Under the pieces are notes generated by a model, which saw only the letters and a program-made list of their open reading frames with translations, was not told the origin of the DNA and made no database searches. Both the position numbers and the translations under genes were made by a program. A stretch of 15,503 nt of DNA from a virus (taxonomy: Duplodnaviria > Heunggongvirae > Uroviricota > Caudoviricetes), in IMG/VR virus record IMGVR_UViG_2579778894_000014, positions 1 to 15,503 of that record; one strand, given 5' to 3'. This document shows, one piece after another, positions 826 to 15,405 of the stretch. How positions within the stretch are numbered: the stretch's first letter is position 1; the number at the start of each line of letters is the position of its first letter.

Positions 826-1350
826 TTACCGGGACTGTTCTATTTGTCGGACACCAGCCAACTGGTTATTCGCCTTCTCGATGGCAGCCAACAATGGGTT
901 AATCCACAGAACAGCCTGGCAATATGTCAACGTTCTGGTGGTAGTGGCACGATCACCGGCTGAGTCAATGTCCCCGGAATCGGCGTGCAATGCGCTGGCG
1001 CGTAAACGGTTCGCGTAGTTGAGCAACCCGACAGCAATATCAACAGGAACAGGGAAATCACAGTTCTTTTCACGGAGCAGAACCTCACGGTATTTGATGA
1101 CTGTCTTCTCGTGACCGATGTCGACCAGAGAATTTAATCGGCTTGCGTTTTCTGCTATCTGGTTAAAACGATTGAAGTTTAATGCCTGATTAGCTATCAC
1201 TTTCCCTTGATATTCAGCTTCACCTTCCGCTTTATCAGCCCGCAACTTTTCTGCCTGATACTTGCTGTGGTAATGGTTTGCAGACCAGACGAGCGCCCCA
1301 AAGGCAGAGAAGAAAAATGCCGCGATGACAATCTTATAAGTCAGCTTCAT
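826..1350 (-). CDS. Rz: Rz-like i-spanin (lysis protein)
   Basis: 174 aa with an N-terminal transmembrane segment (KIVIAAFFFSAFGALVW) followed by WSANHY, resembling the start of lambda Rz, then a charged/helical periplasmic region. Start codon overlaps the 3' end of the endolysin gene by 17 nt, and a lipoprotein ORF is embedded in the +1 frame, as in lambda. Confidence 0.75.
   Translation of the reverse strand: MKLTYKIVIAAFFFSAFGALVWSANHYHSKYQAEKLRADKAEGEAEYQGKVIANQALNFNRFNQIAENASRLNSLVDIGHEKTVIKYREVLLREKNCDFPVPVDIAVGLLNYANRLRASALHADSGDIDSAGDRATTTRTLTYCQAVLWINPLLAAIEKANNQLAGVRQIEQSR
927..1073 (-). CDS. Rz1: Rz1-like o-spanin (outer-membrane lipoprotein) embedded in +1 frame of Rz
   Basis: Not in the ORF track (under 60 aa). 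Manual translation of the minus strand from GTG at 1073 gives MKRTVISLFLLILLSGCSTTRTVYAPAHCTPIPGTLTQPVIVPLPPER (48 aa), ending at TGA 929-927. It has a basic n-region, hydrophobic core, lipobox LSGC and a Pro-rich mature part with a second Cys. GAGG lies 9 nt upstream. Start codon choice (GTG) is uncertain. Confidence 0.55.
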   Translation of the reverse strand: MKRTVISLFLLILLSGCSTTRTVYAPAHCTPIPGTLTQPVIVPLPPER

Positions 1351-1810
1351 TTACCACCCCACCAGCATCTTTAAACCTGGAAATCAGGTCACCGATTTTA
1401 TGTTCATACTGACCGTAACCTGCACCAGGTAACGACGCCCAGATATTGCTGCAACGGTCGATTGCCTGACGAATATCGCCACGGTCAATCATCGGTAAAG
1501 CGCCACGCTCTTTAATCTGCTGCAGCGCCACAGCGTCCTGACTTTCTGGCGAAAAATCTTTCAGGCCAAGCTGCTTACAGTAGGCATCCCACCAGCGTGA
1601 AAGAAGCTGATACCGGCCTGCGGCTGTTGATTTAAGCTTCGGGTTTAGCGTGACAAGTTTGCGAGGGTGATCGGAGTAATCAGTGAACAACTCACCTCCG
1701 ACGATAACGTCATAACCGTGATTACGTGTCGGTTGTCGCCCGTTATCCGTTCCTTCTGACCATGCCACCATATCCAGGAAAGCTTTACGTTGGGAATTTA
1801 GTGTCTGCAT
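1334..1810 (-). CDS. R: Endolysin, lambda R-type lytic transglycosylase
   Basis: 158 aa, the same length as lambda R and nearly identical to it as I recall the lambda sequence (QRKAFLDM.AWSEGTDNGRQ.TRNHGYDVIVGGELFTDYSDHPRKLVTLNPKLKST.AGRYQLLSRWWDAY.KQLGLKDFSP.SQDAVALQQIKERGALPMIDRGDIRQAIDRCSNIWASLPGAGYGQ). GGAG Shine-Dalgarno 7 nt upstream. Follows the holin gene with a 3-nt gap. Confidence 0.95.
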   Translation of the reverse strand: MQTLNSQRKAFLDMVAWSEGTDNGRQPTRNHGYDVIVGGELFTDYSDHPRKLVTLNPKLKSTAAGRYQLLSRWWDAYCKQLGLKDFSPESQDAVALQQIKERGALPMIDRGDIRQAIDRCSNIWASLPGAGYGQYEHKIGDLISRFKDAGGVVNEADL

Positions 1811-1813
1811 GAA

Positions 1814-2155
1814 TTACTCCTTAGAGCCACCAAACTTGTTACCGATTACTCGCATTGCAGCCCCACGAATAGCATCGACACCGATCAGCCCAACACCACC
1901 ACCAATGGCAACAGAAAGCGATTTAGGCCATCCGACATACTCAAGAGCGGATGCAAAAGTCAGCGTCAGAGCACCACAGAGCAAAATCTCAAGCGTTTTT
2001 CGTTTCCAGCCGCCGCCACCGCCAAAATAGGCAATGCGCAAGCCAGCCATAACAATTGACATAACCACTGCGCCCAACGGCGTATCTCCACGCCACCAAC
2101 TTTGTAAGAGTTCCAGTAAGTCAGGCCAGGAATGAGGAGCATTGTGCATTTTCAT
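1814..2155 (-). CDS. Holin with MKM dual-start motif
   Basis: The track ORF starts at 2173, but GGAGGT (complement of 2162-2167) lies 6 nt upstream of the ATG at 2155, and the protein then begins MKM with a second in-frame ATG at 2149, the same dual-start arrangement as lambda S. The product has hydrophobic TM segments, Gly-rich stretches and a charged C-terminus, and directly precedes the endolysin. The sequence is not lambda S itself. Confidence 0.75.
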   Translation of the reverse strand: MKMHNAPHSWPDLLELLQSWWRGDTPLGAVVMSIVMAGLRIAYFGGGGGWKRKTLEILLCGALTLTFASALEYVGWPKSLSVAIGGGVGLIGVDAIRGAAMRVIGNKFGGSKE

Positions 2156-2255
2156 ACTTCCCACCTCCGCCATTACGGGGTGTTGTTGAAAGGCGGGCCC
2201 TGCGTATACGCCCGTAGGATTGGGTTATGAGCCGTCCTTCGGTGGGCCCTGAATA

Positions 2256-2279
2256 CAAAAAAAGTTCGCCATAGCGAAC
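2256..2279 (-). terminator. Intrinsic terminator (candidate tR'-like) about 100 nt upstream of holin
   Basis: Read on the minus strand: GTTCGC-TATG-GCGAAC (6-bp perfect stem, 4-nt loop) followed by TTTTTTT. On the plus strand this is A7 at 2257-2263 then the hairpin at 2264-2279. Confidence 0.5.
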
Positions 2280-2506
2280 CTTGTTAAATTTGTTAAAAAA
2301 GGAGGTTATTTAACATAATGTACGTTATAGGAACCACACGATCCCCGCTCGCAATAGATTTGCGATGAAAGGCCTATTTAATCAACTTAAGTGGTCCAGA
2401 ATGACGAAATTCGAGTGAATAAAAGGTGCATAAAAAAGGGCAAAAACTGCATAGCGTTTTTTCGCAGCGAAAGCCCTGTTTTATTAACTTTTCCCCAGAA
2501 TGGGGC

Positions 2507-14214: not shown

Positions 14215-14976
14215 ATGCAGGAACTAACTGAAATGCCGATCACCTATCCATACCCGAGAGAAACTTTTCCTGACTTTTTGAGGGAGTGTGGGTTCACCAA
14301 TTTTTCCCACGAACAGCGTGAGACTTGTGACTGCTATCGTTTAACGAATGGCGTAATTGTTAACCTTTACACCACCCGGACCATTCAGTTTCAAGGTAAC
14401 CCTCAAGAACGTCCCAATGTTGAAACTGCAATAATGACCCATTTAGGAACGCCGCCCACGGCAACACCACTAGCCGTAGAACAGCCATCTGAGCTCCCCA
14501 AAAAGATATTCATTGTTCACGGCCATGACCATACTGCAAAGGAGCAACTTGAGCTAATCCTTCATAAACTTGGATTACCAGACCATTTCATTTTGCAGAA
14601 TACGGGAGGGACTGGACTCACCATTATTGAAGAGCTTGAACGTGAAATTGGGCAAGGACAAACTGCTACCCGTTTCGGGATTGTTCTTTTGACACCTGAT
14701 GATATGGGATACTCAAAGCGCGCCGGTGAAGCAGAAATCCAACCCCGCGCAAGACAGAACGTTGTACTCGAGATGGGTATGCTTCTTTCGTCCTTAGGGC
14801 GCAGCAATGTAGCAATCCTTCAGAAACAGCACCTAGAACAGCCTTCTGATGCTAACGGGATTTTGTATCTGAATTTCAACGACCATGTACGTGAAACAGT
14901 TCCTCGTCTAGTGCAACGGTTACAAAATTCTGGTTTCGAATTTACACAAGCTCAAATAGCTAACGCTTCCTCGTAA
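14215..14976 (+). CDS. Two-domain protein: unknown N-terminal domain plus C-terminal TIR-like Rossmannoid domain (CAP12/PycTIR-type family)
   Basis: 253-aa ORF with AAGGAA SD upstream; last gene of the operon before a strong terminator. The C-terminal ~150 aa contains KKIFIVHGHDH, GGTGLTIIEELE, FGIVLLTPDD and NVVLEMGMLLSSLG, which I recognise as the pattern of prokaryotic TIR-like nucleotide-binding domains (conserved Glu followed by Gly). The N-terminal ~95 aa has no recognised family. Domain assignment is from memory, not a search. Confidence 0.6.
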   Translation: MQELTEMPITYPYPRETFPDFLRECGFTNFSHEQRETCDCYRLTNGVIVNLYTTRTIQFQGNPQERPNVETAIMTHLGTPPTATPLAVEQPSELPKKIFIVHGHDHTAKEQLELILHKLGLPDHFILQNTGGTGLTIIEELEREIGQGQTATRFGIVLLTPDDMGYSKRAGEAEIQPRARQNVVLEMGMLLSSLGRSNVAILQKQHLEQPSDANGILYLNFNDHVRETVPRLVQRLQNSGFEFTQAQIANASS

Positions 14977-15023: not shown

Positions 15024-15210
15024 TGGGAATAAAAACCCTATGTCATTTAAATACCGGGACAGTCCGCTTTATTACCGGACTGTGCGGGAGGCTTTGCACC
15101 TTGAACAGTCCGGCGGGTACGACCGGGCGATGCAGGTCTGGGCCAAAGCGAACGTCGGTTTGATTTTTGTCTGATGCAGAACATGCGCGAAAAGCGTAAG
15201 GAGGTGGACG

Positions 15211-15405
15211 ATGTCTAATATCGATAATAAGGGTTGGGGGTTCCCCGCTCTGTCAAAAAAAGCACATTTCTTTAATTCGGGGGAAGCCATATCACTATGC
15301 GGAAAATGGATGTTCATAGGTATCAGGATTGATGAATGGCATGACCATCCTGAGAACTGCGCTATCTGCATGAAGAAACGCAAAAAGCAGGAAGGCGAAA
15401 GCTAA
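15211..15405 (+). CDS. Small Cys/His-rich protein (putative zinc-binding), function unknown
   Basis: 64-aa ORF with a near-consensus SD TAAGGAGGT 6 nt upstream of the ATG. Contains C...H-x-H...C-x2-C (CGKW...WHDHPENCAICMKK) and a basic C-terminus. Preferred over the overlapping minus-strand 103-aa ORF. Confidence 0.55.
   Translation: MSNIDNKGWGFPALSKKAHFFNSGEAISLCGKWMFIGIRIDEWHDHPENCAICMKKRKKQEGES

What the first reader, a model, noticed from the sequence alone, without database searches (positions are those of the whole stretch)
927..1073. Unannotated embedded o-spanin (Rz1-like lipoprotein) in the +1 frame of Rz
Hand translation reveals a 48-aa lipoprotein precursor (MKRTVISLFLLILLSGC...PLPPER) wholly inside the Rz reading frame, reproducing the lambda Rz/Rz1 gene-within-a-gene arrangement. 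The ORF track misses it because of its length and the likely GTG start. This completes the lysis cassette: holin, endolysin, i-spanin and o-spanin.
Basis: seen in the sequence. Interest (0 to 1): 0.4.

Follow-up and report, generated by a model that had tools for sequence, protein, structure and literature searches.

The report
Embedded Rz1-type o-spanin gene inside Rz
A 48-codon gene for a small outer-membrane lipoprotein (the second half of the phage's outer-membrane-breaking 'spanin') really is hidden inside the Rz lysis gene of this E. coli prophage. It belongs to a spanin family that is already catalogued, so the finding is an annotation gap and not a new kind of gene.

Summary
On the minus strand, 1073..927 (GTG start, TGA stop) lies in the +1 frame of Rz (1350..826). 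It encodes MKRTVISLFLLILLSGC|STTRTVYAPAHCTPIPGTLTQPVIVPLPPER, a lipoprotein precursor with lipobox LSGC, Ser at +2, and a 32-aa mature part with 7 prolines.

ORF length alone is not significant. The comparative evidence is decisive:
- The frame is open and carries the lipobox in about 164 of 166 Rz-homologue loci.
- Rz third-codon-position diversity falls to 0.20 inside the overlap, against 0.57-0.60 outside it, and ends sharply at the stop.
- The stop is kept in 142 of 142 distinct sequences.
- The start position is GTG, ATG or TTG in 116 of 142.

It is already known:
- The identical 53-aa ORF is named 'putative lipoprotein Rz1 precursor' in E. coli O103:H2 12009.
- Phage LLS annotates the same 48-aa gene.
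- Kongari et al. 2018 list HK225/mEp237/ZF40 as an embedded spanin family with a 48-aa o-spanin.
- RefSeq (PGAP) misses it and calls Rz 'hypothetical'.

One extra result emerged. This embedded pair is homologous end to end to overlapped LysB/LysC-type pairs (SfIV, Providencia prophages). The last ~36 residues, however, sit on the i-spanin here and on the o-spanin there. That is a frame reassignment linking two architectures previously considered unrelated.

The parts
927..1073 (-). Embedded o-spanin gene (Rz1-type): GTG start 1073-1071, 48 codons, TGA stop 929-927, in the +1 frame of Rz.
   Evidence: Searches give the sequence. Searches show conservation in about 164/166 loci and suppression of Rz synonymous variation exactly over this span. 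Searches show homologous or identical genes annotated or catalogued as o-spanin/Rz1.
1083..1086 (-). Shine-Dalgarno-like GAGG, 9 nt upstream of the GTG at 1073.
   Evidence: duplex with the 16S 3' end is -6.4 kcal/mol for this start only (-2.7 and -0.9 for the GTGs at 1088 and 1061); local dip in Rz third-position diversity at 1084-1093. Function is inferred.
1086..1088 (-). Alternative upstream GTG, giving the 53-aa version annotated in E. coli O103:H2 12009. Judged less likely as the start.
   Evidence: There is no SD-like sequence upstream. This codon is GGG in 91 of 142 homologues and GTG in only 15.
1026..1073 (-). Signal peptide (residues 1-16: MKRTVISLFLLILLSG). The lipobox LSGC is at 1023-1034.
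   Evidence: The PS51257 rule is met: Cys at position 17, K/R within the first 7 residues. The lipobox is L[VATSMI][GAS]C in 141/142 homologues. Pfam LPAM_1 scores 18.5 bits, just under its cut-off of 20.
930..1025 (-). Mature o-spanin, 32 aa, starting at the lipid-modified Cys17 (1023-1025). It has Ser at +2, a second Cys (C29, 987-989) and a proline-rich C-terminus PLPPER.
   Evidence: The +2 residue is S or T in 142/142 and never Asp. Mature length is 32 in 134/142. The conserved core is GCS.TRTVYVPAQC.PIP..LTQP...PLPP.
826..1350 (-). Rz i-spanin gene (174 aa): N-terminal transmembrane helix (about residues 3-23, window 1282-1344) and periplasmic Cys97 and Cys144.
   Evidence: phrog_214 'Rz-like spanin', E 1.6e-58. 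Best 19-aa Kyte-Doolittle window scores 1.91 at residues 3-21. PGAP calls it 'hypothetical protein'.
829..939 (-). C-terminal segment of Rz (residues 138-174, TRTLTYCQAVLWINPLLAAIEKANNQLAGVRQIEQSR). It is homologous to the C-terminus of LysC-type o-spanins of overlapped spanin pairs.
   Evidence: BLASTP against Providencia o-spanin P0172 residues 37-72: 53% identity, E 2e-10. hhalign against the LysC family: probability 93.7%, E 1.8e-7. Pfam LysC model positions 31-68.
1334..1810 (-). Endolysin (lambda R-like transglycosylase). Its end overlaps the start of Rz by 17 nt.
   Evidence: phrog_90, E 1.6e-62. PGAP names it 'glycoside hydrolase family 104' or 'family 24'.
1814..2173 (-). Lambda-family class I holin. 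PGAP starts it at 2155 (113 aa) with an MKM dual-start motif.
   Evidence: PF05106, E 1.2e-27. TIGR01594, E 7e-40.

Best explanation
The ORF at 927-1073 (minus strand) is a functional o-spanin gene embedded in the +1 frame of the i-spanin gene Rz of an E. coli prophage.

Inferred mechanism, by analogy with lambda Rz/Rz1 (established knowledge):
1. Late transcripts are read through from the Q-dependent promoter. Ribosomes initiate internally at GTG 1073, 9 nt downstream of a GAGG.
2. The 48-aa precursor is exported by Sec.
3. It is diacylglycerol-modified on Cys17 and cleaved by signal peptidase II after Gly16.
4. Because the residue at +2 is Ser and not Asp, the Lol system sorts it to the inner leaflet of the outer membrane.
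5. The 32-aa proline-rich mature peptide binds the periplasmic end of the inner-membrane-anchored Rz. The complex spans the periplasm, probably as disulfide-linked dimers through Rz1 C29 and Rz C97/C144.
6. Once the holin and endolysin have removed the peptidoglycan, the complexes fuse the inner and outer membranes and complete lysis.

Shown here: the gene exists, it carries a lipoprotein signal, and it is under strong purifying selection in its own frame.

Inferred only: translation start, lipidation, sorting, complex formation and membrane fusion.
For: **Sequence features**
- n-region K2/R3, hydrophobic core, lipobox LSGC, Cys at position 17. The PS51257 rule is met.
- phrog_456 'Rz-like spanin', E 7.5e-7.

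**Conservation**
- In 166 loci encoding Rz homologues, about 164 keep the +1 frame open with the lipobox and the core GCS.TRTVYVPAQC.PIP..LTQP...PLPP. This is 117 distinct peptide variants from many enterobacterial genera and IMG/VR contigs.

**Dual-coding signature on 114 sequences below 95% nucleotide identity**
- Rz third-position diversity is 0.20 in the overlap, against 0.60 upstream and 0.57 downstream.
- The synonymous-difference fraction is 0.17 in the overlap, against 0.49 upstream and 0.56 downstream of it.
- Inside the overlap the periodicity follows the Rz1 frame: 0.16, 0.20 and 0.36 for Rz1 codon positions 1, 2 and 3.
- The signature ends at the stop codon at 927.

**Stop codon**
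- It is preserved in 142/142 sequences. Ile at Rz codon 141 is always the rare ATA (16/16), and Leu is never CTC or CTT.

**Start codon**
- The codon 16 positions before the Cys is GTG in 106, ATG in 7 and TTG in 3 of 142.
- Only this start has an SD-like GAGG upstream.

**Sorting signal**
- The +2 residue is S or T in 142/142.

**Context**
- Holin, endolysin and Rz lie immediately upstream, with terminase downstream.

**Prior annotation**
- Identical 53-aa ORF named Rz1 precursor in GenBank.
- LLS gp56 annotated as o-spanin.
- HK225/mEp237/ZF40 embedded o-spanins of 48 aa with a 32-aa mature part (PMC6139136).
Against: - No member of this particular family has been tested experimentally, as far as I could find. 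All prior assignments are bioinformatic.
- The start codon is non-ATG and not universal. 26 of 142 homologues lack a canonical start at that position and must use another, for example a TTG 24 codons before the Cys. The start in the window is therefore inferred.
- Curated profile hits for the 48-aa protein alone are all sub-threshold: LPAM_1 18.5 bits against 20, LysC 16.9 against 27, and no NCBIfam model.
- ORF length is not significant on its own.
- A few homologues lack the second Cys (L059, L060, L111), so the disulfide idea is not universal.
Confidence: 0.93

Rival explanations
1. The gene is real, but translation starts elsewhere. One option is the upstream GTG at 1088, giving the 53-aa precursor annotated in E. 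coli O103:H2 12009. The other is the GTG at 1061, giving 44 aa.
For: - The 53-aa version also satisfies the lipoprotein rule, with Cys at 22 and R2/K7. It is the version deposited in GenBank.
- GTG at the position 12 codons before the Cys is present in 109/142 homologues.
Against: - **1088:** there is no SD-like sequence upstream, and the GTG is itself part of the GAGG motif. The codon is GGG in 91/142 homologues and GTG in only 15.
- **1061:** this start gives a 12-residue signal peptide with no charge and fails the rule. Its GTG is a by-product of the conserved Cys-Asp (TGT GAT) of Rz.
- Whichever start is used, the mature protein is identical.
Confidence: 0.12
2. The +1 ORF is a non-coding by-product of the Rz amino-acid sequence and codon usage and makes no protein.
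For: An open +1 stretch of this length is common under synonymous recoding of Rz: P=0.17 for at least 68 codons and 0.54 for at least 53. PGAP does not call it.
Against: - Rz synonymous sites are three-fold less variable exactly over the ORF.
- Variation inside the overlap follows the Rz1 frame.
- The stop codon and lipobox Cys are kept in 142/142 sequences, at the cost of rare codons (ATA for Ile).
- The peptide is more conserved than the overlapping Rz segment: 71% against about 60% identity to mEp237 and HK225.
Confidence: 0.02
3. The physiological o-spanin is a longer LysC-like protein made by programmed -1 ribosomal frameshifting from the Rz1 frame into the Rz frame. This would join the lipoprotein part to the C-terminal helix encoded at 829-939.
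For: - The fusion Rz1(1-46)+Rz(136-174) matches the whole Pfam LysC domain above threshold: 39.1 bits against 27.
- Such fused ORFs exist in databases, for example P0002, P0123 and P0125.
Against: - There is no X_XXY_YYZ slippery heptamer in the Rz1 frame.
- The Rz1 stop codon is under selection at a fixed position in 142/142 sequences.
- The database fusions switch frame at different places and look like frameshift mutations or sequencing errors.
- Genuinely fused relatives in Providencia carry an extra DSDGKT linker and a truncated i-spanin. That is a genomic change, not a translational one.
Confidence: 0.02

Closest known systems
Embedded two-component spanins of phages HK225, mEp237 and ZF40 (i-spanin and o-spanin families in Kongari et al. 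2018, PMC6139136)
   Same: - Same gene-within-a-gene arrangement in the +1 frame.
- Same 48-aa precursor and 32-aa mature o-spanin, with the same start position.
- 71% o-spanin identity to mEp237 and HK225, and 61% to ZF40.
- About 60-64% i-spanin identity to mEp237 and HK225 (37% to ZF40).

   Different: - This is a different allele. For example, the lipobox is LSGC where those phages have LVGC, and AHC replaces AQC.
- The phage background differs. Here the N-terminal ~35 codons of Rz, the endolysin and the holin are SfV/SfIV-like at ~89% nucleotide identity. The cassette is therefore mosaic.
Lambda Rz/Rz1
   Same: - Embedded +1-frame architecture, and position after the S and R genes.
- Lipoprotein with an OM-sorting +2 residue.
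- Short proline-rich mature peptide.
- One periplasmic Cys in the o-spanin, at precursor position 29 in both. Two periplasmic Cys in the i-spanin (97/144 here; 99/152 in lambda, from my own knowledge).
   Different: - No detectable sequence homology. Neither the o-spanin nor Rz hits a lambda Rz or Rz1 family in Pfam or NCBIfam.
- The o-spanin precursor is 48 aa here and 60 aa in lambda (PMC6139136 supplement).
- The start codon is GTG here and ATG in lambda (my own knowledge).
- It works like lambda Rz1 but is not a member of its sequence family.
LysB/LysC-type overlapped spanins (Pfam PF23793 LysC; SfIV, SfII, SfV; Providencia prophages such as locus L258)
   Same: The two kinds of locus are homologous and collinear.
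- i-spanin residues 1-129 match i-spanin 1-129 (hhalign probability 98.3%, E 2e-14). BLASTP against the L258 i-spanin gives E 2e-20.
- o-spanin residues 4-39 match LysC 4-39 (probability 98.9%, E 3.5e-17).
- The o-spanin is in the +1 frame in both.
   Different: - In LysC-type pairs the o-spanin continues ~160 nt past the i-spanin stop and carries a C-terminal segment (LTY...IR.IE..R).
- Here that segment is read in the Rz frame and forms the C-terminus of the i-spanin, and the o-spanin stops just before it.
- The 48-aa protein alone therefore fails the LysC gathering threshold (16.9 bits against 27).

Membership tests
o-spanin (outer-membrane lipoprotein subunit of a two-component spanin), functional class | N-terminal lipoprotein signal peptide with a lipobox and an invariant Cys | tested here: met
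   MKRTVISLFLLILLSG|C. PS51257 rule met. Lipobox conserved in 141/142 homologues. LPAM_1 scores 18.5 bits, under its cut-off of 20. LipoP and SignalP were not available.
o-spanin (functional class) | Outer-membrane sorting signal (no Asp at +2) | tested here: met
   Ser18 here. S or T in 142/142 homologues.
o-spanin (functional class) | Gene embedded in, overlapping or adjacent to an i-spanin gene within a lysis cassette | tested here: met
   Lies wholly inside Rz (826-1350) in the +1 frame, downstream of the holin and endolysin genes.
o-spanin (functional class) | The reading frame is under purifying selection | tested here: met
   synonymous-site suppression, frame-specific periodicity, conserved stop codon.
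o-spanin (functional class) | Lipidation, complex formation with the i-spanin, requirement for outer-membrane disruption | not testable with these tools
   Needs genetics and biochemistry.
HK225/mEp237/ZF40 embedded o-spanin family (Kongari 2018) | Significant sequence similarity over the full length, and the embedded architecture | tested here: met
   tblastn gives 70.8% identity over residues 1-48 to mEp237 and HK225 (E about 1e-13) and 61% to ZF40 (E 1e-10). Same precursor and mature lengths.
Lambda Rz1 sequence family | Profile or sequence match to lambda Rz1 | tested here: not met
   Pfam, NCBIfam and PHROGs give no lambda-Rz1 family hit. The resemblance is architectural only.
Pfam PF23793 LysC (Rz1-like lysis system protein LysC) | Whole-domain match above the gathering score (27 bits) | tested here: not met
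   The 48-aa protein scores 16.9 bits on model positions 1-33 only. The Rz C-terminus scores 13.5-16.8 bits on positions 31-68. An artificial fusion scores 39.1 bits on positions 1-68. The window protein is the N-terminal half of a LysC domain.
i-spanin (for the host gene Rz) | N-terminal transmembrane helix plus a largely helical periplasmic domain, and family match | tested here: met
   Kyte-Doolittle 1.91 for residues 3-21. phrog_214, E 1.6e-58. The AF2 single-sequence model is helical but of low confidence, pLDDT 54.6.

The most novel reading that the evidence does not exclude
The embedded spanin pair in this window (HK225 family) and the overlapped LysB/LysC-type pairs are one homologous locus. 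In it, a ~36-residue C-terminal segment has been moved between subunits by a change of reading frame. It is the C-terminus of the o-spanin in SfIV and Providencia prophages, and the C-terminus of the i-spanin here.

This would be a concrete evolutionary bridge between embedded and overlapped spanin architectures. The 2018 spanin survey found no such bridge and concluded that the two architectures arose by 'parallel, unrelated pathways' (PMC6139136, section 11). It would also imply that the spanin complex tolerates the same helix being supplied by either partner, which constrains where the i-/o-spanin interface lies.
Probability: 0.8. Interest if true: 0.5.

Novelty: already known. Interest (0 to 1): 0.25.

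Why it matters
**The finding itself.** It closes an annotation gap. Without the o-spanin, the prophage's lysis cassette looks incomplete. RefSeq/PGAP systematically misses this family: there is no NCBIfam model, Rz is called 'hypothetical', and at least 125 complete E. coli genomes carry this cassette over most of its length. A profile built from the 117 variants collected here would fix that.

**The side result.** The frame reassignment of the C-terminal segment between the i- and o-spanin is of interest to people who study overlapping-gene evolution and spanin mechanism. It shows how an embedded gene can arise from an overlapped one, or the reverse. It also offers a natural domain-swap experiment for mapping the subunit interface.

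Tried and rejected
- **Direct profile searches with the 48-aa protein.** Only sub-threshold hits in Pfam and NCBIfam and no lambda Rz1 family hit. 'Homologue of lambda Rz1' is therefore rejected.
- **Chance test on ORF length by synonymous recoding.** Not significant (P 0.17-0.54). Length was dropped as evidence.
- **Structure prediction.** The single-sequence AF2 model has pLDDT 54.6 and pTM 0.30, too poor to use, so no fold search was run.
- **Programmed frameshifting.** No slippery heptamer was found, so this was rejected.
- **Rfam scan of the window.** Nothing found.
- **Genomic context of P0128,** a possible intermediate. Not on record.
- **Database 'fusion' proteins.** P0002, P0123, P0125, P0132 and P0174 switch frames at different points and look like frameshift mutations or errors. 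They were not used as evidence for natural intermediates.
- **BLASTP of the window Rz periplasmic part against SfIV Rz.** Only weakly significant (E 0.012). The homology claim rests on profile comparison and on the closer Providencia locus.
- **Direction of the frame change.** Whether overlapped gave rise to embedded or the reverse could not be decided. In L258 and SfIV the i-spanin stop lies upstream of the PLPP codons, so at least two mutational steps are needed either way.

Full report
**What is there.** The window is part of an E. coli prophage. It is 99.2% identical over 15.4 kb to E. coli BCE049, and the lysis region is 100% identical to O55:H7 DEC5E. On the minus strand lies a lambdoid-style lysis cassette:
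- holin, 1814-2173 (PF05106 E 1.2e-27; TIGR01594 E 7e-40);
- endolysin, 1334-1810 (phrog_90 E 1.6e-62; close to lambda R by my own recollection of that sequence);
- Rz, 826-1350 (174 aa; phrog_214 'Rz-like spanin' E 1.6e-58);
- then the small terminase subunit, 192-764.

**Checking the observation.** The feature is on the minus strand. GTG at 1073-1071 opens a 48-codon frame ending with TGA at 929-927. It lies one base out of phase (+1) with Rz and entirely inside it. The mechanical ORF list gives a 53-aa version starting at another GTG at 1088.

With the 1073 start the protein meets the PROSITE PS51257 lipoprotein rule. It has K/R in the first seven residues, six uncharged residues, then L-L-S-G-C, with the Cys at position 17. 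The 1088 start also passes. A third GTG at 1061 fails.

**Is it more than chance?** Length is not. I recoded Rz 5000 times with synonymous codons. The +1 frame was open for at least 68 codons in 17% of recodings and for at least 53 codons in 54%. A lipoprotein-rule ORF appeared in 1.5%. The real evidence is comparative.

I collected Rz homologues from 12 phage records, 80 bacterial genome contigs and 80 IMG/VR contigs. Of the 166 loci in which the Rz motif could be located, the +1 frame is open and encodes a lipobox followed by GCS.TRTVYVPAQC.PIP..LTQP...PLPP in all but two. There are 117 distinct variants. The exceptions are L089, which is frameshifted, and L038, which has a stop 3 codons before the Cys.

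On 114 sequences below 95% nucleotide identity:

| Measure | Inside the overlap | Outside the overlap |
|---|---|---|
| Rz third-codon-position diversity | 0.20 | 0.60 upstream, 0.57 downstream |
| Synonymous-difference fraction | 0.17 | 0.52 overall (0.49 upstream, 0.56 downstream) |

Inside the overlap the three-base periodicity follows the Rz1 frame: 0.16, 0.20 and 0.36 for Rz1 codon positions 1, 2 and 3. The suppression stops at window position 927, the stop codon.

The stop itself is selected. In 142 of 142 distinct sequences, Rz codon 141 ends in TG or TA and is followed by A. Ile is always the rare ATA (16/16). Leu is never CTC or CTT.

**Start codon.** The codon 16 positions before the lipobox Cys is GTG in 106, ATG in 7 and TTG in 3 of 142 homologues. 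Only this start has an SD-like GAGG (1083-1086) at 9-nt spacing, with a -6.4 kcal/mol duplex to the anti-SD. The other two GTGs give -2.7 and -0.9.

The same start is used for the HK225 and mEp237 o-spanins in the supplements of Kongari et al. 2018 (48-aa precursor, 32-aa mature part) and for gp56 of phage LLS. The more distant homologues lack it and probably use a TTG 24 codons before the Cys. The start in the window is therefore well supported but still inferred.

**What it is and how it should work.** This is the o-spanin of a two-component spanin. The steps below are inferred from the lambda paradigm, which is established knowledge:
1. internal initiation on the late transcript;
2. Sec export;
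3. lipidation of Cys17 and cleavage by signal peptidase II;
4. Lol-dependent sorting to the outer membrane, because +2 is Ser (S or T in 142/142);
5. binding of the 32-residue mature peptide (7 prolines) to the periplasmic end of the inner-membrane-anchored Rz (transmembrane helix at residues ~3-23);
6. fusion of the two membranes after the endolysin has removed the murein.

The mature peptide has one further Cys (C29), and Rz has two periplasmic Cys (97 and 144). Lambda has the same count (Rz1 C29; Rz C99 and C152, from my own knowledge), which suggests disulfide-linked dimers. A few homologues lack the Rz1 Cys.

**Comparison with what is known.** It is not a sequence homologue of lambda Rz1, since there is no profile hit. 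It is a member of the embedded spanin family that Kongari et al. defined as (HK225, ZF40, mEp237), for both the i-spanin and the o-spanin (PMC6139136, Tables 3 and 4). Its o-spanin is 71% identical to those of mEp237 and HK225 and 61% identical to that of ZF40.

The identical 53-aa ORF is in GenBank as 'putative lipoprotein Rz1 precursor' of E. coli O103:H2 12009 (P0001). Two Serratia phages annotate over-extended versions. RefSeq/PGAP records do not call it and label Rz 'hypothetical protein'. NCBIfam has no model for either protein. The thing is already known, and the value of the finding is annotational.

**An unexpected relationship.** Pfam's LysC model (PF23793, 69 positions) gave two sub-threshold hits in the window. 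The o-spanin matches model positions 1-33. The C-terminus of Rz, a different protein in a different frame, matches positions 31-68. An artificial join of Rz1(1-46) to Rz(136-174) scores 39.1 bits over positions 1-68, above the 27-bit threshold.

The overlapped spanins of SfIV and SfII have exactly that composite as their o-spanin...GCESSRTVYVPVPAIPLPASLTAETPQPAISEPLTYAGSLDLNVSLLSALGQCNLDKAGIRRIEASR... Their i-spanin stops about 130 residues in.

Profile-profile comparison confirms three collinear homologies:

| Window-family segment | LysB/LysC-type segment | hhalign result |
|---|---|---|
| Rz1 residues 4-39 | LysC residues 4-39 | probability 98.9%, E 3.5e-17 |
| Rz residues 138-174 | LysC residues 46-82 | probability 93.7%, E 1.8e-7 |
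| Rz residues 1-129 | SfIV-type Rz residues 1-129 | probability 98.3%, E 2e-14 |
| Rz residues 60-129 (comparison run without the first 46 residues, which are recombinationally shared) | SfIV-type Rz residues 60-129 | probability 94.9%, E 4e-8 |

A closer overlapped relative settles it. In Providencia prophage locus L258:
- the 118-aa i-spanin matches window Rz residues 21-128 (E 2e-20) and then stops;
- the o-spanin (P0172, +1 frame) matches window Rz1 residues 16-47 at 50% identity (E 3e-10);
- after a DSDGKT linker, the same o-spanin matches window **Rz** residues 138-173 at 53% identity (E 2e-10).

That o-spanin type forms a clade of 19 protein clusters (grouped at 90% identity) across several Providencia species, several of them named LysC by PGAP.

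The ~36-residue segment LTY...IEKAN.QL..IR.IE..R therefore belongs to the i-spanin in the embedded family and to the o-spanin in the overlapped family. The difference is a 3n+1 indel between the PLPP codons and the LTY codons, plus the position of the i-spanin stop.

Consistent with this, Rz residues ~123-140 are poorly conserved as Rz protein, while their third positions are almost invariant. In this stretch the Rz1 frame dictates the sequence.

Kongari et al. state that no family combines embedded with overlapped or separated members. They also state that the two architectures probably evolved in 'parallel, unrelated pathways' (section 11). I found no paper describing this link, but my literature access is incomplete. 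I cannot decide the direction of the change. At least two steps are needed either way, because in the overlapped relatives the i-spanin stop lies upstream of PLPP.

**Rivals.**
- A chance, non-coding ORF is excluded by the frame-specific constraint.
- A different start codon remains possible but changes only the signal peptide.
- Programmed frameshifting to make a LysC-like fusion is unlikely. There is no slippery site and the stop is selected. The fused ORFs in databases switch frame at different places and look like mutations or errors.

**Verdict.** The gene belongs to a known embedded-spanin family, and the identical ORF is already named in GenBank. Interest in the finding itself is low. 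The frame-reassignment relationship to LysB/LysC spanins is a moderately interesting by-product that deserves a structural or genetic test.

Noticed in passing
window 829-939 (-) with 927-1073 (-); loci L002, L003, L258: The C-terminal ~36 residues of the window's i-spanin (Rz) are homologous to the C-terminus of the o-spanin in overlapped LysB/LysC-type pairs (SfIV, SfII, Providencia prophages). The embedded and overlapped arrangements are one homologous locus with a reading-frame reassignment of this segment.
   Followed up: yes
protein P0002 (78 aa, E. coli; no locus fetched): In one E. coli genome a frameshift fuses the Rz1 N-terminus to the Rz C-terminus (MISLFLLILLSGC...TLTQ|TGDRATTTRTLTYCQAVLW...). 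PGAP then names the product 'Rz1-like lysis system protein LysC'. The intact embedded gene is never called by PGAP, but a broken one is.
   Followed up: partly
window 14215-14976 (+): A 253-aa TIR-domain protein sits between the prophage DNA polymerase gene and an ANR-family regulator gene. It matches the PADLOC candidate defence system PDC-S35 (E 6.8e-109) and TIR effector models. It is absent at this position in the O55:H7 DEC5E prophage, so it looks like a defence moron.
   Followed up: partly
window 1246-2116 versus 826-1245: The lysis cassette is mosaic. The holin, the endolysin and the first ~35 codons of Rz are ~89% identical at the DNA level to SfV, SfIV and SfII. The rest of Rz/Rz1 belongs to the HK225/mEp237 type, so a recombination junction lies inside Rz just after its transmembrane helix.
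   Followed up: partly
window 2155-2173 (-) and 2261-2282 (-): PGAP starts the holin at 2155 with MKM, a lambda S107/S105-like dual-start motif, although the ORF extends to an ATG at 2173. A 9-bp stem followed by a T-run (terminator-like) lies ~90 nt upstream of the holin. It is in the ~445-nt gap downstream of the Q antiterminator region, as expected for a tR'-type terminator read through by Q.
   Followed up: no
window 1334-1810 (-): PGAP names near-identical copies of this endolysin 'glycoside hydrolase family 104' in some genomes and 'family 24' in others. Pfam and NCBIfam gave no hit at all for it in my scans.
   Followed up: no
window 15042-15220 (+), by homology to L257: The ANR-family transcriptional regulator gene is flagged as frameshifted (pseudogene) in the closest RefSeq genome, BCE049. 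I did not check whether it is also broken in the window.
   Followed up: no
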